64,000 bases of DNA from Antedon mediterranea (Eukaryota; Animalia; Echinodermata): the NCBI RefSeq assembly GCF_964355755.1, contig NC_092673.1, forward strand, positions 18,473,648 through 18,537,647. Reading direction: 5' to 3'. Positions 908-64,000 of the stretch are shown one piece after another. The notes below the pieces were generated by a model that saw only the letters and a list, made by a program, of their open reading frames with translations, ran no database searches and was not told where the DNA came from. The position numbers were made by a program, and so were the translations under genes. How positions within the stretch are numbered: position 1 is the stretch's first letter; every line of letters begins with the position of its first letter.

Positions 908-3900
908 ACGAAAGTGGGCCAAAAGAAAGGAAAGGAAGAAAAACGGATCAAGGTAATTGATTGAAATATGTTGGAAAATAAGAGAGAGAAAATAAAACAA
1001 ATTGAATATTTACAGCATCTCAAACTGGTTTTGGTCAGAATTGGGGGAAACAATAATGATATATATCTCTTGGTATCTTTATTTTATTTTATTCCAATCC
1101 AAAAAAGCTGAATTGGAGATTTTTTCCAAAGGCTAAATTTTTACAAATTATAAATTTCACATACTTTTTCAAATAAATATTATAAATTTTAAACAGTTTA
1201 AGAATTACACATAAAACAAGAAGAAAAAAAAACATTTAAAGTCATTATTATTTAAGAATTAAGCAGACAAGTGAGATATAGAAGAAGCGGTCATTTATTA
1301 TATCTGGATAATGAGACACCAAATTGTCCATATGCATTTTATCATATTTTAACTTTTAATCGCTTTTTAAAGATTTTGTGCAATAATGTATGTGTTCTAT
1401 ATTTTAATTTTTTGTTTATATTATATATTATATATATCGGTTTTTTATCGTACTAATATTTGCCAATCTTTAAGAAGAATTTCTATTGTTATGTTATTAT
1501 GATAATGGACAAATGAAGCTTTTCAATATTTCATTAATTTTTCATTTGCAGGAAATACAATGGCAGATTCTGAAACTTTGAACAGTTTCCAAGACCTAAA
1601 AGGTGGTCTCAGTGGGTACTTTGATGGTGAAAGATACCATTGGCTGAGGTTCCTACTATTTGATCAATTGGATGTCGGGGACCTTACAAATAAAGATTTC
1701 AATGGACATGACTTACTCAATACACTTGAAGACAAAGGTTTCATCTCACCAACCAATGTTAACTTGCTGTTAGAGATTACAAATACATCTGAAATCCAAC
1801 AGGCCAAAGATCTTGTATCAAAGTATATGAGAGACAACAACATTCAGGATAGACATACTGGTAAAGCTAAGTTGTCACCTTACAGAAAGCGACTGTTTAA
1901 GGCCCTGAAACAAGTTGACCGAGATGCATTACGTAATGTTACTGCTTACTATGACTTGACAAAATATAACTTCTCCAATGTATGGGATGCAGTTCTCTAT
2001 CTGGAGAATGATAAACAATTAGTAGATGATTTTGACAAAATACAGAGGTTTGCAGAACGTCTTGGTGGAATAGCAAGCAACACACTACTTGGTAATGGTA
2101 TTTAAAGACCCCTTCCCTGCAATTTTGGACGTTTTTTGGAAAATAATACATATATATCACTTTAAAAACATTAAACCATGTCATTCCTTGTCTTAAATGT
2201 ACGTTTTATGGTAAATTATGATAAAAAGTGAGAAACAATGCACTACCTAAGTAGCTCGCGGCGATCGAACTCTCGTGGACGGTCTCAGGCCTAGCCTAGC
2301 TAGGCTTAGTTTTGTAGGCCTAGCTGGTAAACATCGGTAACGTACGAACATCGTACGCTAGCTATATACCTAGCCTGACGTTGTATAGTTGCTGCATTAA
2401 TTGTCTTTCTATTTTTGCCAGACTCCGTTGATACAAATTGGGGAACACCCGGTATTTTCGCTGAAAAGTTAGGAGTCTTCCATTTGTTTTGGCTTCACGA
2501 TCGATCGAAAAGTGGGCGAATTACAGGTGAAAAACAAAAATATCAATCCGCGCGCAATGCATTTTGGGATTTATAGCGGGCCGCTATAATTATTAAAATC
2601 GATTTATTTTTCACATTTTTAACCGTTTAAAGACGAAAAAAGTTATCGCAATAGGACCATATAGTATTATTTTTACATTAAATATAGTTTGTGATCTTAA
2701 ATTAGATCTAAAAAACGTAGGGAATGGGGCTTTAATATTCTTACAAAACTATTCCAAAGTTAATTGTAATGTAACTATTCATATCTTTCATTTGTTTTAA
2801 AATTTTACATGATTTAATTTCAATCATTGTTTATATACTATACAAGTTGATAATGTATTGATTATTTTATTTATTAACTGATTATGTAATAGTGGGAAGA
2901 ATGAGACTGATGAATATGACAAGATAGTGATAATAAAGACATTGCAATACTAATATAGGATAATGTCATAAACACAAAAATATGAAGAATTTGGAATTTT
3001 GTAATTTGGAAAACTGATTATAGATATAGAAAATGTAACTCAAAATTGTGTTTGAAAATTGTAAATACTGGACTAACTAACAACAACAACCCCCCCCCCC
3101 CCCCACCTTTGGCTGGCTGACCCTCCCCTGGGGGTAATCTATAAGAAATTTAGAAAAATGAAGCTGCTAGGTCTCTGGAAATTGCACTTATACATTGATA
3201 TGATACAAAATTACCATGGTTGGGGGTGAGCTAAGATAAGAAAATTTTGAAAATTAGAGCTGTTAGGTCTCCGGAAACTCTATGGTTGGGTCTGAGCTAA
3301 GACAATTTTGAAAACTAGAGCTGCAGGTCTACAAAAATTACAATCATACATTGAAAATGGTGGAGGGAAAATTTGAAAATATGAAAAATTCATATTATTA
3401 AATTATCTGTTTTAAAAACAAATTCACTGAAATAAATGTAAATGTTTGTGTATAATAAATGATAAATAATTTATTGCCATCTGTCACAATTTAAATCCCC
3501 ATGTTATTAAAATAATACTAATGACAATGGCAGTAAAATAAGAAATAATTGATTATACTTACTTGGATAAAACATGCAAAATTGTATTATTTCACAAGAT
3601 TCCAAAAAAAACCCTACTTTTTTCACAGATGTGCAAGATGGTTCAGTGACCTCTGCATTACCACAGTCTGATATCCAAGGCAGTCAACAAGGTAGGATCC
3701 ACTGGTTAATTCCAGAGGTTAATCATCTAAGTGGTTACATTTTAAAATAAAACTTAATAGACATATTATAATATAACTGTAGCACATTTTGAGTTATTCA
3801 AACTGTATACATTTTAGATGAAAATGTATAGTTATGTTACTCTCCAAAATGAACATAAAATGTATAGTTATGTTACTCTCCAAAATGAACATAAAATGTA

Positions 3901-6239
3901 TAGTTATGTTACTCTCCAAAATGAACATAAAATGTATAGTTATGTTACTCTCCAAAATGAACTTAAAATGTATAGTTATGTTACTCTCCAAAATGAACAT
4001 AAAATGATGAACATAAAATGATGAACATAAACAGTCATTTATTTGTGTGTCACGCATACAAAATAAAAAGCTTTGTCATTAAAATGTGTAATGTATAACT
4101 GTCTTTTTTGTATTTTTGTTGAACAGAATTAACAAAGCTATTAGCATCAGATTCACCAGTTACTGTTAATGAGGAATTAAAAACACAAATGAAGAAAGTG
4201 ATGATTGAGGAACAGGAAAGAAAACTTGAAGCAGAGAGTGGTGAGTTAAGGATCATAAATTAATTTACTTTTTATTTCGTCACCACTCAACAGTGACACA
4301 AGTCAAGTCAATTGCAAAGTTCAACAATAGAAAATGATGAACATATTTAAACATAATTATATAAACAAAATCCAAAGCTCTGTCTTAAGCTGGCCTTTAA
4401 TATACTGTTCAACGTATACTAACAATAACTGTCTTTTCTGGATTTTTTTATTGAACAGAAGTGACAAAGCAGTTTCCATTGGATTCATCAGATACTCTTA
4501 GTGATGAATTTCAAACACAAGTAGAGGAAGAGGAAATTAAACCTGAACCAGAGAGTGGTGAGTCTCATAAAATATTAGTTCAGTTATTAATATGGTTAAA
4601 ATAACTTTAAATGTGATTTTATAGAATGGATTTCAGCTAAATTCTTTTTCATATCCTTTTTTTTATTTCAACATTTATTCAAAAAAAGAAAGTCTTTATA
4701 AACAGAAATATAAAGTGGTATTAGCTTTTAATTTTGTTCATACTTATTAGGCTAACATCATAATTTCATTCATTCATTTATTGCCAGGAAAAAACTACAA
4801 AATGACATTAACAATAGGAGGTTTAAAAAATAGAGAACATATAATGTAGTACTGTATATAAAAAACAAATACATTTTTATTTATATTGGTTGATCAGGTT
4901 ATAGTTTAAATTGTGTTTTAAATAACCAAATGTTTATTTTGTTCACAATATTTAATTCTTATTATTTCAGATCCAGAGCAACCACAAAATCAAGGGTAAA
5001 TGTTTATTGAGTTACACCAAAAATTTGACATTTATCATTATTTGTTTTAACAATAAATTTACAGCAATACTTAACTGCTTTGTACTTTTAACCAAATTAA
5101 TTATGTGTATAATTAATAATAAAACAGACAAAGTTCTTGTTTCTGCCTCAAAATAAAATATACCTGATGATGACCTATGGTCGAAAATACTAGTACAATA
5201 AATATTTTATTTTGATGCAGAAAACAAGAAATTTGTCTGTTTTATACATGATCTTGCCTATGCAGCACCTTTTTTTTCCCTAATTATGTGTATACTCTGG
5301 TATTAACTTCACTCAGTAACTTCATTTTTCATTCAGTACAAACACACTGCCAATTGGCTGCTGGTGTTGTATGTTTATACCAGAGAACTCCCTGTTTATA
5401 CCATAATCAATCAATAAATAAGTATTGCGCGTATGCATGTAAATTGGTAAACAAAGATACAATTGTAGCAATGTTAACTTACTGGAAATCTAATGATTTT
5501 TTTCACTGATTTAGAATAAACTAATGTTTTAAATGGTTATTTATGTTTATTCAATTTATTGATCGAAAATTAATAGCAAGAAGGAGTCTGAAAAAAGTAA
5601 CTTTAAGATTAATTATAACATTTTAATAATTGTTAGTTAGAATTTTAATAATAATTTGTGTACATTTTTAGTTCTAGACCGAGCCGAAAGAAATGTTTGT
5701 TGAAGTTTTTAAAAGGTATTTAACTATTCTATATTTCAGAGTCTCAAAAATTGTTTTTAAATTCAAGCATTGTTTTCAACCTTCTGTAGTTTCAATTTGT
5801 AAAAATTATTTTTGTATACCTTTTACCTATAAATATTTTTTTTTTGTCAATATAAAAAGTCAATAAAAACAAATATATTGATAGGTAGAAATTGTGTAAT
5901 TTTAAGAAAAATTCTTAATATAATTGTAAGAACCTTGAAACCTCTCAAGAATATATTTAAAACAAGATAAGGATTTATGACAAATTTTCTCTTTTAGATT
6001 ACCGGTGGATAGTTTTTGCATTTTGGTTAATTCTATTGGCAGCCTTTGTCATCTTAATTATTATACATGATGGCTTAGCAGCAAGAATTGGCATTGGTAT
6101 TGGATTGTTGGTAACTGTTGTTGGTGGCTGTATCTGGTGTGTACATAAGAAAGTCACCAAGTCTTGTACTCAGTCAACAAACGCAGCAGCAGACGGACAG
6201 AGAGCACGCTATTCAGAAATTTCCCAACAAGAGCAATAG
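908..6239 (+). CDS. Gene 1 (spliced, 5'-incomplete): tandem death-effector-domain protein with acidic linker and two C-terminal transmembrane helices
   Basis: Phase-compatible AG/GT exons 908-952, 1552-2091, 3629-3691, 4127-4240, 4459-4557, 4971-4995, 5672-5715 and 5998-6239 join into one open frame ending ...SEISQQEQ*. Confidence 0.8.
1552..2091 (+). CDS. Gene 1 exon encoding two tandem DED-like death-fold domains
   Basis: ttgcag|GA acceptor and G|gtaatg donor (phase 1-1, 540 nt); LRFLLFD...DLLNTLEDKGFISPTNVNLLLEI matches the DED pattern (L.FL...dLf..Le..g.i...nl.lL.el); a second unit begins SPYRKRLFKAL. Confidence 0.8.
2106..2731. mobile_element. Non-autonomous DNA transposon with TTAA TSD (Kolobok-like MITE)
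   Basis: TTAA|AGACCCCTTCCCT ... AGGGAATGGGGCT|TTAA imperfect TIRs; related partial copy at 57500-57829. Confidence 0.75.
3821..4030. repeat. Minisatellite, 36-bp unit, ~5 copies
   Basis: AAAATGTATAGTTATGTTACTCTCCAAAATGAACAT in tandem, intronic. Confidence 0.95.
5120..5243 (+). mobile_element. Penelope-like element remnant: inverted repeat enclosing a hammerhead ribozyme core
   Basis: CTGATGA-T-GACC-TAT-GGTC-GAAA at 5164-5186, flanked by ~42-bp inverted arms (5120-5161 and 5202-5243). Confidence 0.55.
5998..6239 (+). CDS. Gene 1 terminal exon: two hydrophobic transmembrane segments and a short tail
   Basis: cttttag|AT acceptor; DYRWIVFAFWLILLAAFVILIII-HDG-LAARIGIGIGLLVTVVGGCIWCV-HKK...*; in frame with ORF 6036-6239. 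Confidence 0.75.
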
Positions 6240-37615: not shown

Positions 37616-37779
37616 GTTTTTATCATTGTTTAGAAACCTCTCAATCCTCGACCATACTCAAATTAAAGAAAGAAAGAGAAAATAATAAAGATACTTTGAC
37701 AGATTTATTACTGAGCATCGTGATTGTTGTTATCTGCCTGACTTATCCAGTACACCTGTTAACATTTCGAAACTTGACA

Positions 37780-40700: not shown

Positions 40701-43119
40701 AAAGTAATAAACACTATACCAGAATCTGAACGGTCAAAGGAACTTCAGTCAATTAATCTACATGAAGAAACCATACCATGTGAAAGAGCATTAGGCATTA
40801 AATGGCATCCAGAAGAAGATTATTTATATTTCGAAGCTCCAACCAGAGAGCAAGCTGTCACAAGGAGAGGAATCTTATCTACAATAAGTTCTGTTTTTGA
40901 CCCAATGGGCTTAATAGCACCAGTTATCCTACCGACGAAGATATTACTTCAAGAAGTAATGCGAGATAACAAAGGCTGGGATGAACCCATTGACGGGGAA
41001 ATAAAACAACGCTGGCAGACCTGGTTGGAAGAATTAAAACTTATTTCTAACATCAAGATACCAAGATGCGTTAACTTGAATTGTGCAAACAGACCATGTC
41101 AACTCCATATGTTCGCAGACGCTAGTAAAAGGGGCTACGGAATAGTCGCCTACGTACGATGTGTAGTAGATGGAGCCATTACCTGCAACAATCTGTATAG
41201 CCGTTCAAGAGTTTCACCACTCAAGCGAATGACAATACCACGACTTGAGCTTACAGCAGCGACATTGGCGGTTAAGAGTGCAAGCTTAATCCAATCTGAA
41301 ATAGATTACAACCTTGACGATATCCTTTTCTGGACTGATAGCATGTTGGTGATGAACTATATTAACAATGTGAGTACAAGATTCAGTACCTTTGTTGCTA
41401 ATCGACTAAATGTCATACAAGAAGGATCTACTACGAGTCAATGGAGACATGTTGGTACTAAAGATAACCCTGCTGACATTGACTCAAGAGGACTGAAACT
41501 AGGAAAAATCGAAAATGAGAAAATGTGGTTACGAGGGCCGGAATTCCTCTGGCAGGAAACAAACCAGTGGCCTCAACAAATTCAAGGTAGCCATAATTTG
41601 AAGATAGATGATCCTGAAGTCAAGAAGGTTGCATGCCCAGTCTTGCCTTATGCTGATACATTAGAAACCTTGGCGAAACACTATTCATCTTGGAGTCGCC
41701 TACGTAGAGCCACCGCCTGGATGATAAAGTTAAAACAGGTTCTTCGCAAGAAGGATGTAGACAGAAAATATCTGACGGTATCCGAACTAAAAGCAGCTGA
41801 AGTGTCTCTCGTAAGAAATGTTCAAAGAAGGAGTTACATAGAAGATATTAAATCATTGGAAGCTGGTAATCAAATCAAGAAATCAAGTCCATTAGTAAAA
41901 CTTGATCCATTTTTGGAAAATGGCGTCCTAAAGGTAGGAGGTCGCTTTAGAAGGGCAGAGTTGGGTTCGTCTAAACACCAAATGATCCTGCCTAAGAACT
42001 CTCATGTTTCCCAGTTTATAATACGAGAGATGCACAGAAATCTTGGCCATTGTGGCAGAAACCAAATCATAACGCACCTGAGGAAAGAATACTGGATACC
42101 TCAAGTGGTCTCTGCTACCAGGAAATTAATCAGCAAATGCGTACTATGTAGAAGGTACCACAGAAGAGCGGAAAACCAGAAAATGGCCGAGTTGTAGAGT
42201 AACTGTTGGTGAAAACCCATTCTCGCATACTGGAATGGATTACTTTGGACCCTTCAATATAAAAAGGGGAAGAACTATACATAAGAGATGGAGTAATATT
42301 TACCTGTTTGAAAACTAGAGCAATTCACTTGGAAGTATTTCACTCATTGACGACCACTAGTTGCCTCAATGCTCTTCGACGTTTTACCGCAAGGAGAGGC
42401 CCAATACGCATGATTAATCTCAGACAATGGAACAAACCTCATTGGTGCCAAGAATGAGCTGAAAAGGCAATTAAGGAGCTCGACCCAAGGGAAATCCAAA
42501 GTAATATGCTTCGACAAAATATAGACTGGAAATTTAATCCGCCTTCCGCTTCACACTACGGTGGCACATGGGAGAGAATGATTCGTTCTGTTCGGAAGGT
42601 CTTATATAGTGTTCTGAAGGAGCAACCAATGGAGCTAGATGACGAAGGACTTCCAACAGTATTTTGTGAAGTTGAAGGAATTGTCAATAGCAGACCGTTG
42701 ACGATTATATCAGACAGTCCATAATAGATAAAGATCCGTTAACACCTAACCACTTTCTTGTGGGAAACAAGCAAACATCAATGGAACCAGGCGTGTTCGA
42801 AAGAAAGGAACTAGTAAAGGGATGGAGACAAATTCAGTATTTAACAAATCTCTTCTGGAGACGTTGGTCCAAGGAATATTTGGTAACACTTCAGGAACGA
42901 CAGAGATGGTTTCACCAGAGAAAAAATGTGAATGTAGGAGAAATCGTGTTGATATGCGACAACAACTCACCAAGAGGACAATGGCCAATGGGCAGAGTGG
43001 TGGAGGTATACCCTGATGAGAAAGGTTATGTTAGAGCAGTGAAGCTCAAGACAAGCACATCTGAACTGAAGAGACCAATTACTAAGTTGGTGGTGTTGTT
43101 AGAAGCAGATTCTCCATAA
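37780..43119 (+). pseudogene. BEL/Pao gag-pol polyprotein with stops and frameshifts
   Basis: KFDGNP, CYGCLTTGH..C, FLDPGS protease motif, ADVEKMF, FYVDD, FADAS, HCG/CVLC, FNPPSASHYGGTWERMI; in-frame TGA at 39370 and further lesions near 40105, 42197-42500 and 42722. Confidence 0.93.
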
Positions 43120-47994: not shown

Positions 47995-50900
47995 GGCCAA
48001 ATAAAAAAAATTACTTGTTAAGCGTCACACCCTCATAAATTTTCAGGGGAGAGGGGGAGGTTTTTTTTTAATTTTTTTTTATACTTTTTATGGAGATATA
48101 TTTTTGCGCGATCACCGCCTTTTTAGCATTTCTGCTAGTACAACATATATAAATGAACAAGTACATCATTTTAAACCTTCAGAAACACATTTATTGATCA
48201 TTGATAGTACAATATACACAGATATTTGAAGTTTTTTTTAAAATATTGCAAGTTTGTTTTTGGTAAGATGATTGTAAAGCAGCAGCAAAGTGTGGTATTA
48301 TTTACAGTATGTATTGTAAGGTACTGTTTAATATACAGTAGTAGAACATCAATGCTGACAGACTAAAATGTGATTCCTTATTTTCTATGTTTACTTAAAT
48401 TTTCTTCCTCTCCTATGCACCTTCTTACATCTCTGCTCATTACAACCTGAACACTGTGGGTAGTATTCATCCACTAGTTGCAACTCATCTAGTGTTCCGC
48501 AGTGGATGCAGACATCTTCATAACCTGCCGAATAAAAAGTGAACTCGATTAAAGTATTACATGTTAAGTTTTCTCTAACATACACTTTTTTAAGTGGATC
48601 GTCATCTGGCATTTCAATAGTTGTCAGGGTTGCCCCACAACTATAGAGTGCTGTCTCCATTAACAATTCCAGTGCTTGTCTTGTCTTTTTTGTCAACTTC
48701 TTCTTTGCATACAGACACCTCCACTTTTCGCATTCCTCGCACTGTATGATCACGCCAGCATTCTTAGCCGTTTGGGCTGATGGATTGAAAGGGCATCCAT
48801 GTCCTGTGGCTCTAGTAACTGTAAAAGAAGGCCTGTAATGTTCTGTAGTTTTCTGTGAAAAAAATAAATATATACATCATCATTCTGTGGTAGTATCATC
48901 ACTTCACCTTTAAATTAGCTTTACAATTGCTTTGATAAATTCTCCATGTTCTCTTTCAGATATTAGCCTGAAACCAAATACTCATAAAAGCAATGAACAC
49001 AAAGTTTACCTTTCCATAAAGTTCCTCAAATGAGTAATATTTGTCTCCATCAGGCATAGGGTCTGGAAGATGGTGAACTTCACTGAAGACCTTGATTGGA
49101 AGTCTGGGAGGCTTACATACACCACACTCTGGCGAGGTACACTTCAATATCGAGAACATGTAGTTTCGAATTTGGCAATGGTTATCTATAAACTGCTTTA
49201 GCTGCTCTTGGTTCTTTAGATGCTGTTGGGTTTTAACTTCTGGAGTCAAAGAGTCATCAACCTTTAAAAGAAATTTAAAAAGTCAATATAGATACCTGTA
49301 GTTGAAACAATTAAATAACAGAATATCATATAGAGACAAGAGTATAATTTATTTGAAAAATTTACAATTTACCTGTAAAACATTACTCCATAAGTCAGCC
49401 ATTTCATCAATATCAGCAGGACCAAAAGTTTTAAAGCCCTGATCCTTTAATTTGAGACGCTCCATAACATTTCTCAGTAACTCGATGCAGGGCTGCACTG
49501 ACTCTAGTACCTCTTCTTTGAGTTCCGGGATAGTTTTAGCCATTTCCCGAGTATCTTTTAGGCCTCCACACTTAGTTAACTTGTCCTCATGTGTTATAGC
49601 TTTCTCCCTCATCACACCAACACCCTGTAGTCCAACATTAATTATTGACATTATGCGCTCAACTGGGTTTTTCCAACTGCGTTTTGGGGGTGTTCTCACA
49701 GCACAGAGGAAGTCAAGGTCTAAGTTAACAAACATGGCAATCAGTGATAACTGAACAGAAAGATATGTAACTCTATGGTCTGGACCTCCATCTGTATAGG
49801 CCAAAAGCATCGGCTTGTTCAAGTTCAAGTTGGTCATCTCCTGTCTAAGTTCAGTCATGTGCCGTATAGGTGAAGATGGCTGGAAGCAGTTCTCCTTAAA
49901 TGAAATGCAAACTTGACCTACATGAAACGAGTCATCGATATGGTCAGGAACGTCAATAAACAGATTAACACTTGGTGTTAGACTCAGCCGTGTGAAGTCA
50001 TGGTCTGCCACAACAAACTTCTTCCCCATGGCTACAAGAACTTGTTTGCCACGCTCAACAGCTGCCACTGGACAACCTGGCTCACCCACCTTGATAGTAT
50101 GCTTGTCATCCATGCTGACAAATACTAGATGCTCTTTGAACCGGATACTGAATTTCTTCTGGTAACGAAAAAGTGCTGAAGCATAATGGGAGTCTACATG
50201 ATGAGCTCGAAATTGCCTTGCCTGAACCATAAACTTGATCTTTAACTTTCCAGTGAAACGAGCAGCAGCCTTAGCAGTTGGTCTGCGTGGCCAAAACTGT
50301 AACCTCAACCATTGAAGACTTGGTATTTTGGTGCCCTCATCACATCGCTCTATCACTTGATCGTAGAGGTCTCTAACACTAACAGCTGTTGCTAAGTGTG
50401 TGATTACCTCGTTTTCTGACACTTGATCATGACGTCTGTCGTCAACAGCTGTCTCAATACCTGCGTTGATAGTTTCCCGACATTTATTCAGGAAAGTGTC
50501 ATACTCTAATGGCCGTCCAGGGTTACAGTGTCGTCTGTCCCAAAGCAATTCGGGGTCTTGCTCATCAAGGACTTGTTCTAAGCGTCGATCAACTTCAGCT
50601 TCATCTAAAGTTTCAGACGAAGAACAGTCACCTAAATTTTAAAAAAATTGAAATTGTGTAGAATAAGTTAAAGAGCTTTTGGGTCTGTAAAGGTCACTAA
50701 GAAATAATCAAAACTGAGGAGACCAGACTGACAAATAGTTGGAAAATAAATAGAAACAAACCTGTCAAACTTCGGTAAGCACTCCGCAAAACTGCCTTGT
50801 TAGCAACAAGTCCAAATGACTGCACAAATTCTCGCTTCATTGATCTGGAGTGGTATTTTGGTACTGTTGCCCGTACATGTTTACACACATCATGAGCACG

Positions 50901-52962
50901 GTTAATTACATCATCAGAGCTCATTATTTCGTCAATCTTGCATGCAAAATACAAAGTTTGGGATCCACTGCTTTCTGAGATCAGCAAACATCTCATTGGT
51001 AGCTTCAAATCTGAAAAGAATCTATATCTTTTCTTTCTGTCTACTGGAGAGTAATCATTCAGAAATAGACAATCCCAACATTCCCTTTCCATCAACTCTT
51101 GAACTATATATTTATATTCTTCAATTTCTGTTTCTGTCTTTTCCATGATATTTATGGTTTCACTCTCTTTCACAACCATCATTGATTGGTTATCTTTCAC
51201 CTGGAGATTAAATTAGATGTGTTAACATACAAAAAGGGAAATGACATACAATTTATAACCTATTGGAAAGTTAATGGTTGTATAGATTGTTTGCATAAAA
51301 GTAGAGAAAAATAGTATATACAATTCTTGACTTAAATGAAGAAAGTGATTTCACTTGCCAAACTTGGAAGGTATCACAAAAATGTGACTTGTTCATTTTT
51401 AAAGCTGCAGGCCATATGAGAAGGCACCAAATGGCAATGGCCATGGTTTAACAAATGTCATCAGTATTGAAAAGTATACAGCATACAATCAATATACATG
51501 ACCATGAATATGCTAAAAACACTTACCTTCCTAGCTATATACTATAGGCAGTTAGTTGCTCATTAAAAATGAAAGAAAACTCACCCTTTTTGTCTGTGAC
51601 TTCATGTAGTCAGCATATTTCAACAAAGCTTCAGAAAGTGTGCCAATAGCGTCAGAAATATGTCTCCAACATTCCTTCTTTAGAAAGGGCATAGACATAA
51701 GATTATAGAGTGCTGACGTGTGTTGTCTTAAGGCATTCTCGGAAAGGAACGATTCATCTATTTTCCTTTTTTTTGCCTCCACATCTTTCTTAAAATTGAC
51801 AAAAGTTGAGAACATTTCCGGTATTTTGCAACCTCGTTGATTTAAAGAGTCATGATTTTTGTCAATGTGCCACAATGCCTCGGCTAAAGTATTGATGAAT
51901 GTCCACGCACTCGCCTGGTTTTCTTGCGACCATCCCAGGCCCTCCTTTTCTATCCAATCCATGATTGCATTTTTTAACTTTGATAAGCCTGGATATCTTC
52001 TTGTCATCAGCCTTTGTGGAACGCTAACGGCTCCTCTTTCATCCATCATCATAGTGAAGGCATTTTTGCTTTGTGGTTTATTAAGTTCCATCTCTTTGGC
52101 AGGTACTGTGAATTGGATAAAATTTCCTAACGTTTCCACGACATCTTGCACCAAAACGGGACTCTCGCGTGAACACATGACCTCCGTCATTTGTGTCTTC
52201 GATTTCCCAACCGAAACCAAAAAAAAAAATTGCTGTTGATCATCATCAATATTAAATTTATGAAAAAGATCGATCAAACTCAGGTTTTCAAGAACTTTCG
52301 TACCACACCAATCCTTTATTGGACTGTTCCTACCTGTTTGAACAATTTGCAATACGATAAACTTGTGTTTAGGAGGCCCACTCTTGGCTTCGTCCCCCAT
52401 CATGATGCAGAAACACAAAATGAATAAGTAATTAGATACGCGCGCTGCGCTGTCATTAAACCGCCCCCCCCCCCCACAGCAGCTAGCTCAGGCGCTAGCG
52501 CCACATGCGCGCCTAGGAGAGAAAAGATAAACAACAAACATTTTGAAATCGCTGGGAGCGTGCTTTATTCTGGTTCCCGGTCGTCGCGAGCGGGCTAATT
52601 TGTGCCACTGAGTTGTTCGCGTTTCGCAGTAGAATATTAAATAAACAAGAGAAGAGAAGTATATCATTTATTCAAAACATTTAATATCGCAAATACAATT
52701 TATTAATTGTTGGTACCGCTACCGTTGATATATTTGTTTGCACTTTAAAACACGATCGAATTGGCTGCAGCAGGGAATCAGGGTAAAAAACGTCTCATGG
52801 GACGAAACGTCTCATGAGACGAAACATCCCTCTGGGGCTGGGCCGGGCCGCCAAACTTTTCGTCGTATATATATGGTGAAAAAAAATTTAAAAAATAAGA
52901 GAGGCGGCTGGATAATCAGGAGCGGGCGGTGACGCTTAACAAGTATGTTTTTTTATTTGGCC
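47995..52962 (-). mobile_element. Zator-type DNA transposon, full length (~4.97 kb)
   Basis: TIR GGCCAAATAAAAAAA...TACTTGTTAAGCGTCAC at both ends, GG termini, 3-bp TSD TAA (47992-47994, 52963-52965); encodes a spliced DDE transposase. Confidence 0.85.
48391..52403 (-). CDS. Zator-type DDE transposase, 5 exons, one apparent 1-bp frameshift
   Basis: Exons 52403-51585, 51200-50762, 50631-49373, 49261-49010 and 48852-48391 with GT-AG introns; motifs SMDDKHTIKVGEPG, DHDF, YTDGGPDH, SWKNPVERIMS; Cys-rich C-terminus (CEEC, CIHC, CSGC); frame break at ~50580 (CGC TAG AAC for R-[VL]-E-Q). Confidence 0.85.
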
Positions 52963-55427: not shown

Positions 55428-56172
55428 ATTAGATGTAATAAGATTATTTGGTGGTTTGAATCGTGGAGGTAGAAAATAATGTTAACTCCATGGTTGAATC
55501 GCGCGTAGATTTCTTCAGTGTATGCATTAGGCATCTGAAACCAATTCGTAGCTGTTTCGATATCTACAACTGCTATATTTTTTTGCTGACCGGGGATTCT
55601 CCTTTTTGTGAAACGCGCACTTATTCTCAAATCAAAAACAATATGTATGATCATTTTTCCAATGGCCAAATGGTGGAAAATCTTCGATTTACTAAAATGC
55701 GGTACCTGCACATACTTGTTTTTGTAACACGCAGGTACTTCTAATCATATCGGCAATGAGATCATTTGAGTATTACGTATTTCTTCATTTTTTTTAAAGT
55801 GTGGATAGTCATAATCGTAATAATATTAAATAATATAGACAGCATTTTTTGCGTTCTATACTTTATTGAGGCCGAGTTGACCGATTAGTTTTTGGCCGAG
55901 TTGACGTGAGGCCGACTTGACGTGGGGGCCGACTTGACTTTGGCCGAGACGGTTTAGGGCCGACTTGACCTGCACCCTTTAAGAATGATTAAATAACTTA
56001 CCTAAAAGATAATGAAAATCATGAATATAATTTTTTATCAATGGTTATTTTCATAAATACACAGGTAGTGATGCATTATTACAATTAGGAATAAGCTTTC
56101 AACAGAAATGATTTACAAACAATTGGGCAAATTTATAGGACACAACCAGATCTTCTGAAAACTAACCGTACA

Positions 56173-59100
56173 ATGAGGTATTGAAAAAGATATACAGTAC
56201 AGTATTTTTATAATATTTATCGATTGACAAGAGCCATATAATGTATTTCCCCAGTCTTAACATATTAACTACCTATTTATCCATCCATTTATAAAAAATT
56301 ACACAAAATGTGGCCAACACAATTGTTTGTCTTTATGAATTGAAACAAATGGCATTGAAGATTGATGAAAAGGACATACTGTATTGTGTCTAATAAATTC
56401 CCCCTCCCTAATAAATGTCCCCTCTGAGATTTTTTTTCAATATTGTAATGAGTGCTCATGTATCCAGTTCATAGAAACCTTGCGCCCTTAAATTATTAAG
56501 GGCAAATATTAAATTTGATATGCTACGATAAATTACACCGACCATGAATTAAATTGTCAGACAGTTACACCTTGTGTATGTATGATGGTGGTAAAAACCA
56601 ATGTTCTGAAAATATTGCAGGGATAATGTCTATTGATATTACAGCAGTGATAAACGTGTGCATGGACCAGTGCGATAGAATATTGAATTATTGCTGTTGA
56701 AAAAAGGAGGCAGGCTAGAGATAACTTGCACATTACCTTTTTCCTCAACAAATAAAGAACTTATTACATGCTTTAAAGCAGTTTGTTAGTTATTGGGTGT
56801 TAAAATTTACCTCTTATAAATGACCCCCTTTTTGGAAAAATTAAACACAATACAGTACATTTCATTTTAAACATTGGTCAATGTTGTATTTAACTTTAAT
56901 CATTTCAGTTCACTAAAGGATCGTCTTGTAAGAAATGTCATTCGAAGGGCATTTCGTGGTAAGAAAAGAATGTTATTATCAGTTTTTGGAAAGATGCTTG
57001 CAAATGATGAATATCAACTTACAACAATATTTTGTAAGCCGGCAGATAGAAAGGTTAATTACTATTTGTTGTTAAACTGTATTTGAATAATGTAGTTTTT
57101 ATTTACTTACAGCTGTTTATAGATATAATAACTGTTCAATACAGTAGTTGCTTTTTTCCCAATTTCTTCAATAAAGGATATTTGTTACTGAGTTGATCTT
57201 GTATTTGATTGATAATCATGTTAGCTTAGAGCAAACACTGAATTAAATTGGCATAATGCTTCTCTTATTTTTATCAATTTTAAAATGGTGCAGTATGAAA
57301 AGGGCACGATCAAGTGGAAAAAATGCATTGTGAAAAACCCATTCAAACTTCAGACCAGAGTATTCACAGGCACTAAATTTAAAATTAATATTGAAGACAG
57401 AAAATAGTATATTTGCTAAAACTTTTAGCATCATGGTTCTAAAGTTTGCTTCTGTTACAGTTAAAAATTTGTAGTAATTGTGTACTGTACATAATTAAAT
57501 ATTAAACCAGGTCATTCCTTGTGTTAAATGTACGTTTTATGGTAAATTAGGATAAAAAAAAAAGAGAAACAATGCATTACAGTAGGCGGAGATTTGTACT
57601 CTCTGAGTACCCTCTTCCATTTGTTTTTGGCCCACGATCGATCGAAAAGTGGGTAAATTACAGAAGATAAAAAATATCAGTCCGCGCTCAATGCATGTTG
57701 GGATTTATAGCGGGCCACTTAAATTATTAGAATCAACTTATTATTTAACCATATAGTATTTATTTTTACATTAAATGTAGTTTGTGACCATAAATTAGAT
57801 CTAAAAAAATGTAGGGAATGGGACTTTAATTACACTGTCAAGATGTAAACATGACCAATAAATAACTATTATTTAAAATACGTTGTTTGTACAGTATTAC
57901 ATGTATATTTCAGAATATAGAACAAGATCATATACAAAATGGTGAGCAGATGTTAATACCACCTATAAAAATACTCTGTCTGTATAAGGACATGGAAATT
58001 ACTGTTGAAGTATTAGACCAGCAATGGAAAATCCAGGAAGGATCTAAAATATCACGGGTAAAAACATTTGTTGAATAAAAATGTATTACTGTACACACTA
58101 TTTAATATTAAATTATACAAATTATAGACATTATATAATGCTGTGGTAGGTTGAAATGGTGATGAATATAATTATATTAAAACTCCATTGCTATCCAAAG
58201 CATACTATAAACACAGTGTATATTATTTTATTTGACGATTTTGTATCACAATGCTGTGTATTATTTTTTTAATGTAAATGAATTAGCTTTTCGTAAACAT
58301 TTTGAGAATTTTGTTGAAGAATACTGCGCATTGTAGTAGGCTATGTGCCATCTATAACTACTCATCGAACAAAATCCAAGCGCCATCTTCGATATTTGGT
58401 TCAAGATAGAAATAGTGGATTAGTTGAATAAAAGAACTGTAGAACATTAGGTGTGTTATAAAACAAATAATGTTGTTGAGGATGCACACTTTTATTTGCA
58501 GTATAGCCATTTTTCTATTTCTCATTGAGACAAAAAACTCTTTGAGTTGAATGAAAGCATTACCAGTATAAACAAAAATTATTTGAAAAAATGTATTCAC
58601 CAAAGCAATCAATTTAACTACAGTGCCTTTCAGCTGTAACTTTTTATCTGAGTATGGCTTCTCTTTTTTTCCTAGATTGTCATTGCTGAATACCTATGGC
58701 GTGGAACATCATTAAAGAAATTTTTTTTAAAAAGAGGTAATTCATCAGCAAATGTCCTAAAGGCAACAGTATTACTGTCACAAATGTCAAATGATATTGA
58801 TCCTGTGGAAGTGTATTGTAAGTATTTAAAATGCAACAATAAGTCTAAATTTAGAATGATGATTGTAATAAATAAAATGTAGTATTTAAATACGGTAATA
58901 AGACATTAACCATCCATGACAATAACTAGCTAACCATTGTTAGAGTATGGGGTGGAAACAATGTAGGTGTTGGCTTGGTTTTTATCTAGCACTACAATAC
59001 ACTTTGGTTACGTTGCTAGTTCCTAAAACACCTTAATTCCTCCACATATCAAGCAGATGATTCTAATTATTTCGAATGTCGGTTGGATGTTTTTTTTCTC

Positions 59101-62100
59101 ATTCTCACAGATTTCCTCATTTAAATTTTTTTTTTGTATTATTTAATTTCCAGAATAATAATCAAGTTTTTCTATACATCTATATCTGGTTTCTTTTTTT
59201 ATTGAAATAATGGTTATATGTTTTATTTGTTATAGGCAATTTTGAGACATCAAGGTATCATCTAGGTATGCCATCCCTCCTCTTAATTTAAACGATTTGC
59301 CTGCTTATCTCCCAGCCCCTGGGCCACCACCTTTAATATATGCTGGTCAGGTCCTAAAAGCCCTTTGTAATCTTAAGCCTAACAAAGCTGGCCATCCAGA
59401 TGAACCTCCTATTAAACTATATAGAGATTTTGCTCCTGAACTTGCTGAACCTGTTGCGGATATCTTCAATCATGCATTGAAGGATGGTGTTTTTCCCGAC
59501 CTTTGAAAAAGGGCTACTGCAGTTCCCATTCCTAAAACTGTGAATGCTAGTTCTGTCTCTGACCTTAGACCTATTTCCCTTACCTATGTTCTTGCCAGGG
59601 TATTTGAATCTTTTATTGTTAAGTGGATTCTTGAAGATATTAAGGGTAAATTAGATTCTCGTCAATTTGGTAGTAGGAAAAAGGCTTCCTCAACTCAATG
59701 TTATTATTATAAAGTTGATTGAACTGGGTGTGAGGTCGTCCATAATTCCCATCGTCTGCAGCTTTCTCACTTCCCGTTCTCTCAACACCAAGTTTGCTGG
59801 GATTTTGTCATCTTCAAAGTCACTGACTTGTGGTGTCCCACAGGGGACATTGCTTGGCCCTGTACTTTTCCTAGTACTTATTAACGATGCTTGTGTTGAT
59901 TGCTGCAGACGATGGAAATATGTGGATGACCTCACCCTTGGGGAGGTCGTTCGCAAAGGTGATTTGCCTTCCATGCAATCCCTGTTAGATGATCTGAGTG
60001 TTTGGTGTTCATCCAATAATATGATACCCAAACCCTCCAAATGCCATATCTTGGTTGTCAATTTTCTTAAGGACAAGTCGGATGATATTATATCGCCTTC
60101 TTTTAGTCTGAGTGGTTCCATTTTACAAGTAGTTGATCACATGACGCTTCTTGGTGTAATCATTCAAAATGACCTGAAATGGGAACTTAACACTAATAAT
60201 ATTGTGTCTAGAGCTTCTAGACGTTTATTTTCCTTGTGCATTTTGAAGAAAGCAGAAATCTTAATTAATGATCTGTTGACTGTTTATATGGCGTATATAA
60301 GACCTATTTTAGAATATGCTGCCCCTGTTTGGCATGGCGCTATCACTAAGGACATGTCCAAGTCTATTGAAAAGGTACAAACGAGAGCATTGCGTATCAT
60401 GCTAGGTAACAACTATTTGTGCTATGATCATGCATTGTCTGTTACTGGTTTACCTACTCTTGTTGAGAGAAGAAACAAACTTGTGTTGTCTTTCGGGGAA
60501 GGCTTATTAAAATCCGAGCTGTTTAAAGAAATACTTCCCCCTCTTCATAAGCCAGCTCGGTCTCTCAGAGTCAACCGCTTTCTAGAAGTACCTCTTTGTA
60601 AAACCAGCAGACTTAGGTCGTCTCCAGTTCCCACCATGGTGGATATAATTAATAGGCACCACTAGCTTTTTTTTATAGATGTAATAAGTGAATGTTTTAA
60701 GGTTTTTTATTCATGTATGTTTTTAATTGTATGGTACGATATCTAATTTTATTAAGATGTTTCTATTTTTATAGCAATTTTAACTAATTTTTAGTCATTT
60801 GTAATACATTTCATTTCAGTCCTTGACTGTCGTTTTGTAATATATTTTTATATACCGAATAAATAAAAAAAAAATGTTGTAATGTTAATTATGGTAATGA
60901 TGTAGGTTAAGTACGTTTTCACTTGACCAGAGAAATGGCATGAGCCAATACGTCTGAGGCAGATACAGTAATAGATGAAGCGGCTGTCATAAGGGTCAGC
61001 CCCTGTGTTGATTTCAAATGCATGATGGAACCCCAGCTTCATATATACAGCTATGATATTCCTAGATGGTCTCCCATCCAAGCTCCAACCAGGTCCAACA
61101 TTGCTTAACTTCGGTGATCAGACAAGAAAACCAGTGTTTCAATGTGACAAGCCCATATTATATTATATGTAGTAAACAAACAAAAACAGACTACAATTTT
61201 TAGAATTTAATTAATACAATATAGGTTATATTCCGGCCAATGTGAAAAGTTTTATGGTAAGTTCCGGCAAAGTTGCAGGCATCTATAACTACACTTTGCC
61301 AGCATGCCTATAAGAAAAGGACTCTTAAACCATGATACTTTATAGCAAATATATTTACTGTAATTTTTAGCTAATTTGTTTCATCTCATGCCTGTACAGG
61401 TGTTCCTTCCAGTACAGGTGTTTCTTCTGGTATTGGTGTGTCTTCTGGTACAGGTGTGTCTTCAGGTGTAGGTGTGTCTTCAAGTGCAGGTGTGTCTTCT
61501 GGAGCAGGTATGTCTTCAGGTGCAGGTGTGTCTTCAGGTGCAGGTGTGTCTTCCAGGGGTGGCGCCAGGATCTTCCCGACGCGGGGGCTACATTCTCCGA
61601 CGAGGGGGCTATGCGAGCGAAGCGAGCATCACTAGGCTGGAGGCCAGGGGGCCGCCAAGGGCCCCCGGTGGGGGTGCAGGGGGCTAAGCCCCCGGAAGCA
61701 ACTCGTTCTAGCGTCATTTGAGGTCATTTTAATCAGATTTAGGGTAGCAATTTTTTCCATTTTTTATAATGCATAAATAAAATACTGCGTGCAAAAAAAC
61801 GATGCGCGATGACTGTTTCAATCCATATTTTTCAATTTAGAAAATAAAAGTTCAAAGAAAATTTAGAAAAATAGAGTTGGAGGTCCCGGAAATTGGACTT
61901 ATTATACTTCAAAACATGAAACAAAATATATAAGTCCCTATCATGGTTGTGACTGAGCTAAGAAATGTTTGAAAAATAGAGATGTTAGGTCCCGGAAAAT
62001 GCACTTCTTGTACTTCGAAATATGACCAGCTTTATTGTTGGGGCTGAGCTAAGAAAATCTTTAAAACTAGAGCTGCAAGTCTTCAAAAAATTGCATTTTA

Positions 62101-64000
62101 TACTTTGGAAACATCAGGCCTAGAGGCTTAAAAAAACGCAAGTAGACCTTTTTCAGTCGGGGAAATAAGTTTATTCCTCCCAAGTGTATGCGTGCGTACC
62201 ATCTGGACTTCCGAGTGGTGAGAAATTCATGACATAGGCCTACAGGTCATTGAAAATGTAATAACTTAGCTATAGTAAGATGTTTGCTAAGCGAAAATGG
62301 CACGTTTTTTTTGTTTAGTAATGGATGAAAAATTTATTTTAGGTGCCCCACGGTACAGAAGGTTACTTGTAAATTAAAAAATTGGTGAACATACGAACAA
62401 TTAACTTAATTCGTTTTTGCTGTAGTGTAGCGTACGTCGACACAGTACACGACGTAACCGTCGGTAAACTTCGCCTGGAAAATAACTACAGTACACATTT
62501 TGGTCCCTGGATGGAACATGATATCACGCGTCTCGACCCAACGTTGAACGATTCGTACAAAGGGATACTGCCAGACAAGTGCGTACCTAGCTATTGTTTA
62601 GTAGTAAGTTAGATCGCTGGCAATAATGAATGCATATCGAGTGCATAATATCACTCTGACGTACTCTCACGGTCAATGAAACGTCGCGGTTTTGTAGGCG
62701 CTGAAGCTAGCTACGAAGTGAACGCGAACGCTTTTTACTGTATATTATATTCCCCGACAAAAAGTACCCGTGTTCCCTTCGGTAACCGTCGGTAAACTTC
62801 GCCTGGAAAATAACTACATTACACATTTTGGTCCCTGGATGGAACTTGATATTACGCGTCTCGACCCAACGTTGAACGATTCGTACAAAGGAATACCGCC
62901 AGACAAGTGCGTACCTAGCTAATGTTTAGTAGTAAGTTAGATCGCTGGCAATAATGAATGCATAAAAGTGCATAATAGCCCTCTGACGTACTCTCACGGT
63001 CAATGGAACGTCGTGGTTTTCTAGGCGCTGAAGCTGTATGAAGTGAACGCGAACGTTTTTTACTGTATATTATATTCCCCGACAAAAAGTACCCGTGTTC
63101 CCCGACGCGGGGGCTAGGCTCCCCGACGAGGGGGCTAGAGCCCCCGTAGCCCCCCCGCTGGCGCCACCACTGGTGTCTTCTAGTACAGGTGCATGCAACC
63201 AAGGTATTAGGCAAGGTTAATACTCTTTAGTAGTACATATATAAATATATATAATAAATTTAGGTTTTTTTAATACAGATACAATGCAACATTTTCACCG
63301 GAAATGTTTTGAATATGTGACCTACTATTCCCTACTATTCTACTCACAGACTAGAATCGTCATGGTCAATAAAAACAATAACATCGTTGTATTGTCACGA
63401 TATTATTGCTCTTACTGACCATAACGTCATTTGATTGCACATGTGAAAATATTATTTTCATCAAAGGCAGCATATGTGGTTATCCTATAGTTCTAGTATT
63501 AAAACTTTTTAGATTTTCTTTGTTTTATGTATAAAAAATGCACATTTACCTAATTATCGTCGATTGTTATCGTCCTAGTGTAAATGGGCCTTTATTTCGA
63601 GTTTAGGGTGATAGAAGATTTTTTTTTATCATTGTCAGTGCTGTCATAGTTTTGCACAATATATATTTTAAATCAAACTCATTTTGATTTGAATCAGTGA
63701 AAATAATCATTGTCCAAATAATGGCCAGTAATTTTATTTGCAGATTCTAAAACCTACAACAATTTCCGAATTCTAAAAGCTAGTCTTGGTAAATGCTTTG
63801 TCGGTGAAAGATACCGTTGGATAAGGTTCCTACTATTTGATAAGTTGGATGTCAGTGAAATTACAAATATAGATTTCAATGGATATGACTTACTCAATCA
63901 CCTTGAACACAAAGGTTTAATCTCACCAACTAATGTTAACTTGCTGTTAGAGATTACAAATACATCTGAAATCCAACAGGCCAAAGATCTTGTATCAAAG
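56173..64000 (+). CDS. Gene 2 (spliced, 3'-incomplete): UPA-like domain, Gly/Ser linker and DED; paralog of gene 1
   Basis: Phase-compatible exons (ATG AG 56173-56177), 56909-57053, 57914-58057, 58676-58817, 59236-59265, 61400-(MITE)-63203/63215 and 63744-end; start codon uncertain. Confidence 0.7.
56909..58817 (+). CDS. Three exons encoding an UNC5-type UPA-like beta-sandwich domain
   Basis: KRMLLSVFG..EYQLTTIFC..GEQMLIPP..ITVEVLDQQWK..IVIAEYLWRG..FFLKR..LKATVLLSQ aligns by eye with UNC5 UPA motifs recalled as KRLQLAVFA, EYSLRVYC, GGYLVEEP, EIPFYHIWSG, FTLER, CKICVRQ. Confidence 0.72.
57500..57829. mobile_element. Partial copy of the Kolobok-like MITE found at 2106-2731
   Basis: Shared GTCATTCCTTGT..TAAATGTACGTTTTATGG, CACGATCGATCGAAAAGTGGG and the end GTAGGGAATGGGACT|TTAA. 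Confidence 0.75.
59270..60874 (+). mobile_element. 5'-truncated, inactivated LINE (CR1/L2-group RT) in an intron of gene 2
   Basis: DLRPISLT, QFGSR, GVPQGTLLGPVLF, YVDD, LLGV, RPILEYA; in-frame TGA at 59504; internal deletion near 59697 removes the DxxKAFD motif; A-rich tail at 60858-60874. Confidence 0.9.
60900..61155 (-). mobile_element. 5S rRNA-derived SINE (SINE3-like) or 5S pseudogene with a 3' extension
   Basis: Minus strand TCTGATCACCGAAGTTAAGCAATGTTGGACCTGGTTGGAGCTTGGATGGGAGACCATCTAGGAATA matches the 5S rRNA A-box/IE/C-box region with substitutions; followed by a non-5S body. Confidence 0.75.
61400..61553 (+). repeat. Coding 18-bp tandem repeat (GVSSGA)n, a linker exon of gene 2
   Basis: GVPSST GVSSGI GVSSGT GVSSGV GVSSSA GVSSGA GMSSGA...; the frame resumes after the MITE at 63181 (SSTGACNQG). 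Confidence 0.75.
61554..63172. mobile_element. Non-autonomous hAT element inserted into an exon of gene 2
   Basis: 15-bp TIR CAGGGGTGGCGCCAG / CTGGCGCCACCACTG; 8-bp TSD GTGTCTTC (61546-61553, 63173-63180); internal ~328-bp tandem duplication at 62454-63102. Confidence 0.9.
63744..64000 (+). CDS. Gene 2 DED exon (runs off the window), paralog of 1552-2091
   Basis: ttgcag|AT acceptor; DSKTYNNFRILKASLGKCFVGERYRWIRFLLFDKLDVSEITNIDFNGYDLLNHLEHKGLISPTNVNLLLEITNTSEIQQAKDLVSK, open to the window end. Confidence 0.85.

What the first reader, a model, noticed from the sequence alone, without database searches (positions are those of the whole stretch)
56173..64000. UPA-like domain fused to DEDs with no visible ZU5, in a tandem paralog family
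Seen: three exons encode a UPA-like domain, followed by a Gly/Ser linker and a DED exon paralogous to gene 1. Known: UPA normally sits in the ZU5-UPA-death domain supramodule (UNC5, ankyrins, PIDD, UNC5CL). Here no ZU5 exon is recognisable upstream and the death-fold partner is a DED. Inference: genes 1 and 2 are opposite halves of one family architecture, UPA-linker-DED-DED-linker-TM-TM, arrayed head-to-tail about 62 kb apart. This would be a lineage-specific cell-death or immune adaptor cluster and is the best candidate for an undescribed system in this window.
Basis: partly seen in the sequence, partly recalled or inferred. Interest (0 to 1): 0.85.

Follow-up and report, generated by a model that had tools for sequence, protein, structure and literature searches.

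The report
Damaged feather-star ZU5-UPA death-adaptor gene
This stretch is a damaged copy of a feather-star gene family that joins a predicted self-cleaving ZU5-UPA switch to caspase-8-type death-effector domains: the 'missing' ZU5 part is present but broken, and the intact relatives are likely a little-described kind of cell-death or immune trigger.

Summary
The UPA exons, Gly/Ser linker and DED exon are real. The headline 'no ZU5' is wrong: the last ~35 codons of ZU5 lie just upstream (56337-56909), split by a 479-bp inverted-repeat element and ending in a stop and a one-base frameshift before the His-Phe-Ser motif; the rest of ZU5 is absent from the window. A second element with an 8-bp target duplication interrupts the linker exon. 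Gene 1 is not the other half: it is 335/351 identical to the tail of a Roc-COR (Roco) GTPase model. Antedon relatives mix ZU5-UPA, tandem DED, Roc-COR and transmembrane modules; one predicted model matches UNC5B ZU5-UPA (Z 25.1) and caspase-8 tandem DED (Z 14.9). Best reading: a decaying copy of a ZU5-UPA-tandem-DED gene whose intact relatives likely work like PIDD1/CARD8 with DED output. An 825-nt UPA-linker-DED frame can still be spliced open, so a live ZU5-less form is not excluded. The scan noted this genome's Roc-COR-DED genes before on other DNA, but not ZU5-UPA-DED.

The parts
908..952 (+). Gene 1: 45-nt linker exon that follows COR in Roco-type relatives
   Evidence: 75-87% identical to P0001, P0004, P0005; AG/GT borders
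1552..2091 (+). Gene 1: one phase 1-1 exon encoding a tandem DED
   Evidence: 94% to P0001; model pLDDT 92.5; caspase-8 tandem DED, TM 0.70, E 4e-4
3629..5715 (+). Gene 1: five short linker exons (3629-3691, 4127-4240, 4459-4557, 4971-4995, 5672-5715)
   Evidence: 97-100% to P0001; open frame and GT-AG sites
5998..6239 (+). Gene 1: last coding exon with two hydrophobic stretches and the stop codon
   Evidence: translation; 91-93% to P0001 over 44-47 residues
56337..56378 (+). Gene 2: ZU5 remnant, part 5' of the inserted element; homology stops abruptly at 56337
56379..56857 (.). 479-bp non-coding element with 18-nt terminal inverted repeats and a TA duplication (Tc1/mariner-type MITE; class name from recalled knowledge) inside the ZU5 exon
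   Evidence: arms 56377-56394 / 56840-56857, 94% complementary; diverged pieces elsewhere in the DNA runs (table 8)
56858..56909 (+). Gene 2: ZU5 remnant, 3' part; stop at 56891-56893, one extra base, then the His-Phe-Ser codons at 56901-56909
   Evidence: DNA contigs identical to the window over 55953-57010
56909..57053 (+). Gene 2: start of UPA; in relatives this is the 3' end of the ZU5 exon, so the AG at 56907-56908 is at best a cryptic acceptor
   Evidence: paralog contigs continue upstream in coding sequence like P0014 (table 7)
57914..58057 (+). Gene 2: UPA exon 2
58676..58817 (+). Gene 2: UPA exon 3
59236..59265 (+). Gene 2: 30-nt phase 1-1 micro-exon
   Evidence: AG/GT borders, matches P0163 after its UPA
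61400..63203 (+). Gene 2: Gly/Ser linker exon built of 18-nt repeats, interrupted at 61554; in-frame cryptic donor after 61507
61554..63172 (.). 1.6-kb element with 15-16-nt terminal inverted repeats and an 8-bp target duplication (hAT-type; class name from recalled knowledge)
   Evidence: arms 61553-61568 / 63158-63173; duplication read from the sequence
63744..64000 (+). Gene 2: first DED of the tandem-DED exon, cut by the window end
   Evidence: Pfam DED E 3.1e-5, below the curated cut-off; family profile i-E 1.5e-34

Best explanation
Gene 2 (56337-64000) is a 5'-truncated, twice transposon-interrupted copy of a feather-star ZU5-UPA-linker-tandem-DED gene and is likely a decaying pseudogene in a fast-turning cluster, while gene 1 is likely the tail of a Roc-COR-tandem-DED-transmembrane gene that shares only the DED exon. 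Shown: the domains, the ZU5 remnant and its lesions, the two insertions, the match of gene 1 to a Roco model, and the mixed architectures of the relatives. Inferred: intact relatives cut themselves at His-Phe/(Ser, Cys or Thr) at the end of ZU5; ZU5 keeps holding the UPA-DED fragment quiet; removal of the N-terminal part frees UPA to cluster and the tandem DED to polymerise and recruit (or, like cFLIP, jam) a DED-bearing caspase or FADD. The modules are probably reshuffled through phase-1 exon borders.
For: ZU5 remnant. Lesions also in DNA contigs, 0 differences over 55953-57010 (these runs may be the source sample). No ZU5 positions 1-110, Roc-COR or DED match between 6.3 and 56.3 kb, and 55975-56336 resembles no family protein (best score 42, null mean 46.4). 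ZU5 precedes UPA in 10 of 13 family models with a UPA; the other 3 begin inside UPA, and one of them, P0009, starts in sequence matching the window's intron and carries the accession number next to P0018, which ends in ZU5 plus the first UPA exon. The remnant is no more diverged from P0014 than the UPA is (16/25 vs 79/124), and dN/dS between the two DED1 copies is 0.91. Mechanism: P0019 model (pLDDT 88.8) matches UNC5B (Z 25.1, rmsd 2.4, 274 aligned), CARD8 and NLRP1 FIIND (Z 16.4, 15.9) and caspase-8 tandem DED (Z 14.9); Ser, Cys or Thr follows the Phe in 12 of 12 ZU5 copies from 10 proteins, with His-Phe in 9 of 12, where non-cleaving UNC5B lacks the motif.
Against: The 825 nt from UPA to DED1 can be spliced with no stop, either through a strong in-frame donor after 61507 (top 0.7% of GT sites) or by skipping the linker exon. 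Under neutral decay that frame stays open 38% of the time at 1% divergence but 0.8% at 5% (assumed indel rate), and the element in ZU5 looks old (nearest listed pieces differ at about 10 of 77-86 bases). DED1 keeps 30 of 30 family-invariant residues and UPA 10 of 11. Model P0002 begins at the first Met of UPA and has two accession numbers. Gene 1's Roc-COR exons lie outside the window, so that assignment rests on P0001. Self-cleavage, filament formation and caspase binding are untested.
Confidence: 0.64

Rival explanations
1. Gene 2 is alive as a ZU5-less, 'pre-released' UPA-linker-DED-DED protein: after ZU5 was destroyed, a cryptic acceptor inside the Ser codon of His-Phe-Ser (or the Met at 56970) gives a product that starts where self-cleavage would, and a cryptic donor bypasses the element in the linker. 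It would act as a constitutive DED nucleator or a cFLIP-like decoy.
For: Open 825-nt frame; acceptor at 56909 scores 5.4 (true sites -0.9 to 14.2; top 4.4% of AG), donor after 61507 scores 8.4 (true sites 3.1-9.3); invariant residues kept; P0002 is a similar ZU5-less UPA-DED model; free UPA-CARD fragments are the active form of NLRP1/CARD8 (bioRxiv 2020.06.27.175497, abstract and introduction).
Against: No upstream coding exon or family-like 5' sequence was found; two independent insertions plus a truncation hit this copy; an open frame is expected if the decay is recent, and a 69-nt identical tail between the two DED1 copies (p 2.8e-5 if differences were uniform) suggests gene conversion, which can keep a dead copy looking intact; splice scores come from only 12-13 training sites.
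Confidence: 0.2
2. The UPA exons are dead, but the DED exon at 63744 still serves a live gene that starts elsewhere (a DED-first gene, as in P0011, or one spliced from further upstream).
For: The DED exon is phase 1-1 and is used behind several different modules in relatives; DED1 keeps all 30 invariant residues; all lesions found lie upstream of it.
Against: No other family exon was found between 6.3 and 56.3 kb; gene 1 ends with its own stop at 6239; nothing beyond 64000 could be read.
Confidence: 0.12
3. One reading: genes 1 and 2 are opposite halves of one ZU5-less architecture UPA-linker-DED-DED-linker-TM-TM.
For: The DED exons are paralogous; P0019 shows UPA-DED-DED-TM in one protein.
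Against: ZU5 remnant at 56337-56909; P0019 has ZU5 (Pfam E 6.5e-21); gene 1 is 335/351 identical to P0001, whose N-terminal part is Roc (E 5.7e-7) and COR-A (E 4.3e-13); gene 1's 45-nt exon matches only Roco-type relatives.
Confidence: 0.04

Closest known systems
UNC5CL / UNC5 / ankyrin ZU5-UPA-DD supramodule (PDB 3G5B, 4D8O; PMC10084454 and PMC9162469, passages read)
   Same: ZU5-UPA fold and order, death-fold domain behind it; NCBI already names some relatives 'UNC5C-like protein' or 'netrin receptor UNC5B-like'.
   Different: The death fold is a caspase-8-type tandem DED, not a DD; among 49 non-family ZU5 hits scanned, 34 had a Pfam Death domain and 0 a DED (Pfam DED is insensitive here), and 0 of 129 matched the family DED profiles. 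In gene 2 ZU5 is broken.
PIDD1 (His-Phe-Ser self-cleavage; PMC9162469, passages read)
   Same: His-Phe followed by a nucleophilic residue at the end of ZU5; one relative has two ZU5-UPA units (P0015).
   Different: No LRRs seen; DED output; Cys or Thr replaces Ser in 8 of 12 copies; cleavage not tested.
NLRP1 / CARD8 FIIND-CARD (PDB 7CRW, 7JN7; PMC3210808 passages; bioRxiv 2020.06.27.175497 abstract and introduction)
   Same: Same fold (Z 15.9-16.4), flexible linker between UPA and the death fold. PMC3210808 lists a dog FIIND protein labelled 'death effector domain containing' in a figure legend, so FIIND with DED may have a precedent.
   Different: 7-8% identity, no Pfam FIIND hit; tandem DED instead of CARD; no NACHT-LRR seen.
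Roco GTPases with death-fold domains (DAPK1-type Roc-COR-DD, recalled; Roc-COR-DED genes noted earlier in this genome)
   Same: Gene 1 matches the tail of a Roc-COR-DED-DED model; 10 of the 13 DED-exon hits carry Roc-COR sequence.
   Different: C-terminal transmembrane tail; one relative fuses both switches, Roc-COR-DED-DED-ZU5-UPA-DED-DED (P0016), a computed gene model without transcript check here.
Domain-shuffled immune and death genes of amphioxus and sea urchin (PMC2575513, passages read)
   Same: DD, DED and CARD are swapped freely as connector domains in invertebrate deuterostomes.
   Different: That paper's text does not mention ZU5 (0 occurrences).

Membership tests
ZU5-UPA-death-fold supramodule (UNC5/UNC5CL/PIDD1/ankyrin) | UPA domain | tested here: met
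   Window exons 30.2 bits vs 6.4 best shuffle; P0019 Pfam UPA E 6.5e-5 over positions 1-138 of 140, below cut-off; fold match to 3G5B
ZU5-UPA-death-fold supramodule (UNC5/UNC5CL/PIDD1/ankyrin) | ZU5 directly N-terminal to UPA, in the gene family | tested here: met
   10 of 13 family models with UPA; Pfam ZU5 above cut-off
ZU5-UPA-death-fold supramodule (UNC5/UNC5CL/PIDD1/ankyrin) | Intact ZU5 in gene 2 itself | tested here: not met
   Only the last ~35 codons, with an insertion, a stop and a frameshift
ZU5-UPA-death-fold supramodule (UNC5/UNC5CL/PIDD1/ankyrin) | C-terminal death domain of the DD class | tested here: not met
   All listed fold matches of the DED exon are caspase-8, cFLIP or vFLIP tandem DEDs; no Pfam Death hit
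Self-cleaving ZU5 proteins (PIDD1, UNC5CL, CARD8, NLRP1) | Phe followed by a nucleophile at the end of ZU5 | tested here: met
   Ser/Cys/Thr in 12 of 12 copies, His-Phe in 9 of 12; His-Phe-Ser codons at 56901-56909
Self-cleaving ZU5 proteins (PIDD1, UNC5CL, CARD8, NLRP1) | Actual self-cleavage with fragments staying associated | not testable with these tools
   Needs expression and immunoblot or N-terminal sequencing
FIIND-CARD inflammasome sensors (NLRP1, CARD8) | Pfam FIIND sequence match and C-terminal CARD | tested here: not met
   No FIIND or CARD hit; fold similarity only
Tandem-DED proteins (caspase-8, cFLIP type) | Two rigidly packed DEDs | tested here: met
   Gene 1 exon: TM 0.70 to 4ZBW over 180 columns; P0019 310-483 Z 14.9; gene 2's second DED lies beyond the window
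Roco GTPases (gene 1) | Roc followed by COR in the same protein | tested here: inconclusive
   Met in P0001, 335/351 identical to gene 1; the exons themselves lie upstream of the window and no genome was held
Pseudogene (gene 2) | No translatable product | tested here: inconclusive
   ZU5 dead and linker interrupted, but an 825-nt bypass frame is open

The most novel reading that the evidence does not exclude
Feather stars run an inflammasome-like switch with DED output: self-cleaving ZU5-UPA-tandem-DED proteins, shuffled with Roc-COR GTPase and membrane modules, that feed DED caspases directly; and gene 2 is a living, genetically 'pre-cleaved' member in which transposon damage removed the ZU5 brake and splicing now starts the protein at the cleavage-site serine, giving a constitutive UPA-DED-DED nucleator or decoy.
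Probability: 0.17. Interest if true: 0.8.

Novelty: new variant of a known kind. Interest (0 to 1): 0.45.

Why it matters
The locus itself is most likely debris of gene birth and death. The family is the interesting part: the ZU5-UPA release switch is known with DD (PIDD1, UNC5CL) and CARD (NLRP1, CARD8) outputs; an expanded tandem-DED version would link that switch to caspase-8-type filaments and is directly testable by expressing one intact relative. It also shows two different switches (Roc-COR and ZU5-UPA) sharing one DED exon in one cluster. Eight literature searches (open-licence papers and preprints only) listed no paper describing it, though the proteins are annotated in NCBI and a dog FIIND-DED label exists in PMC3210808.

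Tried and rejected
No genome was held, so the window could not be extended. No RNA holder was listed; the one run guessed as RNA (X5) gave no splice joints among the rows shown and covered intronic repeats, so splicing is untested; its lack of cover on the unique parts of gene 2 is no evidence. Single UPA exons gave no Pfam hit at E 0.5, too short to be informative. The candidate upstream exon 56065-56177 with the ATG at 56173 resembles no family protein and changes frame internally; I do not count it as an exon or as a lesion. An early idea that the domain was a COR C-terminal part was dropped once P0014 showed ZU5-UPA. The first run of the exon script had off-by-one borders (its joined frames and gene-2 DED rows are invalid; its UPA conserved-column and upstream-stretch results are not affected) and was repeated. 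The ESM Atlas listed ZU5-UPA clusters with DD, CARD or PYRIN and none with DED among the rows shown; it searches only clusters of 50 or more, so this shows no absence. Only 60 of the 145 new hits were scanned against Pfam. Two papers on ZU5 and UNC5CL self-cleavage were not held. Depth of contigs was not used as a copy number. No complex was predicted, since no partner caspase from this animal was in hand.
Full report
Question. No genome was held, so I worked from the window, homologous proteins, DNA contigs and predicted folds.

Organism and family. The gene 1 DED exon found 13 proteins among 979 candidates, all Antedon mediterranea models; the UPA and ZU5-UPA searches added four and a profile-free search of 1.84 billion representatives gave 322 hits at E 0.001, 150 listed. 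The close ones named are from Antedon and Anneissia. The window is therefore from a feather star close to Antedon (inference). Fifteen of the 17 proteins list the same 36,192,472-base contig, which fits a cluster.

Gene 1. Its eight exons splice with GT-AG borders into 389 codons and a stop, 335 of 351 aligned residues identical to P0001 positions 602-952. P0001 carries Roc (E 5.7e-7) and COR-A (E 4.3e-13) in front of that part. The 45-nt exon at 908 matches only Roco-type relatives. Ten of the 13 DED-exon hits contain Roc-COR sequence. Gene 1 is thus likely a Roc-COR-DED-DED-TM gene; its Roc-COR exons are outside the window and were not seen. Earlier scan notes describe Roc-COR-DED genes elsewhere in this genome (AI notes, not used as evidence); none matched ZU5-UPA-DED.

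UPA and DED. The three exons, joined by coordinates in a script, score 30.2 bits (E 1.9e-11) against a profile of 24 distant Pfam-UPA-positive proteins, against 6.4 for the best of 500 shuffles (those proteins were found with a paralog as query). They are 61-67% identical to the UPA of P0163, P0014, P0018 and P0002. The model of paralog P0019 (pLDDT 88.8) matches UNC5B ZU5-UPA at E 2.9e-22, Z 25.1, rmsd 2.4 over 274 residues, CARD8 and NLRP1 FIIND at Z 16.4 and 15.9, and caspase-8 tandem DED at Z 14.9 for residues 311-486. The gene 1 DED exon alone (pLDDT 92.5) matches caspase-8 tandem DED with TM 0.70, and all rows listed are caspase-8, cFLIP or vFLIP. Pfam DED scores stay below the cut-off. 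The linker is real: with a 30-nt micro-exon at 59236 it matches P0163 at 26 of 37 residues.

ZU5 is there, broken. An element with 18-nt inverted ends (56377-56394, 56840-56857) and a TA duplication sits there. Left out, the flanks give ZU5-UPA profile positions 103-134 at i-E 4.8e-7, against 0.0077 with it in place; the 25-codon remnant scores 70.8 against eight family ZU5 sequences, null 18.7 +/- 2.6, maximum 36.8, 0 of 3000. A stop (56891-56893) and one extra base precede the His-Phe-Ser codons (56901-56909). Upstream of 56337 homology ends: no ZU5 positions 1-110, Roc-COR or DED hit between 6.3 and 56.3 kb, a span largely filled with Pao/BEL, non-LTR and other elements. DNA contigs of three runs of one sample agree with the window without a difference over this region, so the lesions are not assembly noise, though the sample may be the source.

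Second lesion. A 1.6-kb element with inverted ends and an 8-bp target duplication interrupts the linker exon at 61554-63172; read-through stops at 61633.

Family architectures. P0019 ZU5-UPA-DED-DED-TM; P0163 DED-DED-ZU5-UPA-linker-(truncated); P0015 (ZU5-UPA)x2-DED-DED; P0016 Roc-COR-DED-DED-ZU5-UPA-DED-DED; P0017 DED-DED-TM-ZU5-UPA-TM; P0001 Roc-COR-DED-DED-TM. ZU5 precedes UPA in 10 of 13 models with a UPA. The three exceptions start inside UPA: P0009 starts in intron-like sequence and is numbered next to P0018, which ends after ZU5 and the first UPA exon (likely one split gene); P0044 is a fragment; P0002 (UPA-DED4) starts at the first Met of UPA and is the one possible ZU5-less protein. 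All are computed models. Outside the family, 34 of 49 ZU5 hits scanned had a Pfam Death domain and none a DED (60 of 145 new hits scanned, of which 11 were family members), and none of 129 matched the family DED profiles; both tests have low sensitivity for foreign DEDs.

Dead or alive. For dead: truncation, two insertions, stop and frameshift; remnant and UPA equally diverged from P0014 (16/25, 79/124); dN/dS 0.91 between the DED1 copies over 85 codons. For alive: an 825-nt frame from UPA to DED1 is open through an in-frame donor after 61507 or by skipping the linker exon; the acceptor in the Ser codon scores within the range of true sites; 30 of 30 invariant DED1 residues and 10 of 11 UPA residues are kept; neutral decay would leave the frame open 38%, 16%, 6% and 0.8% of the time at 1, 2, 3 and 5% divergence under an assumed indel rate. 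The age of the lesions is unknown and gene conversion (69 identical bases at the end of DED1) blurs it. I put pseudogene at 0.64, live ZU5-less form at 0.20.

Mechanism of the intact family (inferred). PIDD1 cuts itself at His-Phe-Ser (PMC9162469, passages), CARD8 and NLRP1 at Ser-Phe-Ser within ZU5 (PMC3210808, passages), UNC5CL keeps this activity while canonical UNC5 does not, and ZU5 holds UPA and the death fold in a closed state (PMC10084454, passages). Freed UPA-CARD fragments form filaments promoted by UPA (bioRxiv 2020.06.27.175497, abstract and introduction; PMC11874512, passages, which also covers tandem-DED filaments of caspase-8 and cFLIP). In the family Ser, Cys or Thr follows the Phe in 12 of 12 ZU5 copies from 10 proteins; that Cys and Thr can serve as nucleophiles in such reactions is recalled knowledge. 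The likely working is therefore self-cleavage, ZU5-held autoinhibition, release, UPA clustering and DED-mediated recruitment or blocking of a DED caspase. None of these steps was tested.

Novelty. The switch and the DED module are known kinds, and swapping of DD, DED and CARD is documented in amphioxus and sea urchin (PMC2575513, passages); UPA-ZU5 fusions in invertebrate immune proteins are mentioned in PMC8195603 (passages). Eight searches (listings read) showed no description of a ZU5-UPA-tandem-DED family or of this crinoid cluster; subscription papers are not covered, and a dog FIIND protein labelled DED-containing appears in a legend of PMC3210808 (supplementary figure not seen). Verdict: new variant of a known kind; the flagged feature, absence of ZU5, is damage in one copy. 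Interest 0.45.

Noticed in passing
P0016 (Antedon mediterranea model): One model carries Roc-COR, a tandem DED, ZU5-UPA and a second tandem DED in one chain; P0015 has two ZU5-UPA units, P0017 has DED-DED-TM-ZU5-UPA-TM, P0024 four tandem DEDs before Roc, P0029 and P0039 join the DED pair to ubiquitin or RING/NHL domains.
   Followed up: partly
window 1755-1823 and 63932-64000: The two DED1 copies differ at 36 of the first 186 bases and at none of the last 69, which suggests gene conversion.
   Followed up: partly
window 55953-57010: One unbranched DNA contig without any other letter spans 1058 bases, at one of the lowest depths among family contigs; this copy may sit on one haplotype only. Not tested.
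   Followed up: no
window 9358-14499 (-) and 37576-43119 (+): Two Pao/BEL-type LTR retrotransposons (Peptidase_A17, DUF1759, integrase), each in several reading frames.
   Followed up: partly
window 17015-18934 (-) and about 59270-60870 (+): Non-LTR reverse-transcriptase elements; the second is a broken fragment inserted just behind the micro-exon donor of gene 2.
   Followed up: partly
window 48391-52487 (-): Five open frames of 108-429 codons that look like one spliced transposase-like gene; only a weak zf-CW hit (E 2.5e-4, below cut-off) in Pfam.
   Followed up: no
window 61042-61160 (-): Degenerate 5S rRNA copy, 40.7 bits against a gathering score of 38, in an intron of gene 2; a 5S pseudogene or 5S-derived SINE.
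   Followed up: no
   Followed up: no
window 29304-30539 / 31415-32654 and 35576-36045 / 45488-45957: Large inverted repeat pairs (89% over 1.27 kb; 95% over 470 bases), probably transposon ends.
   Followed up: no
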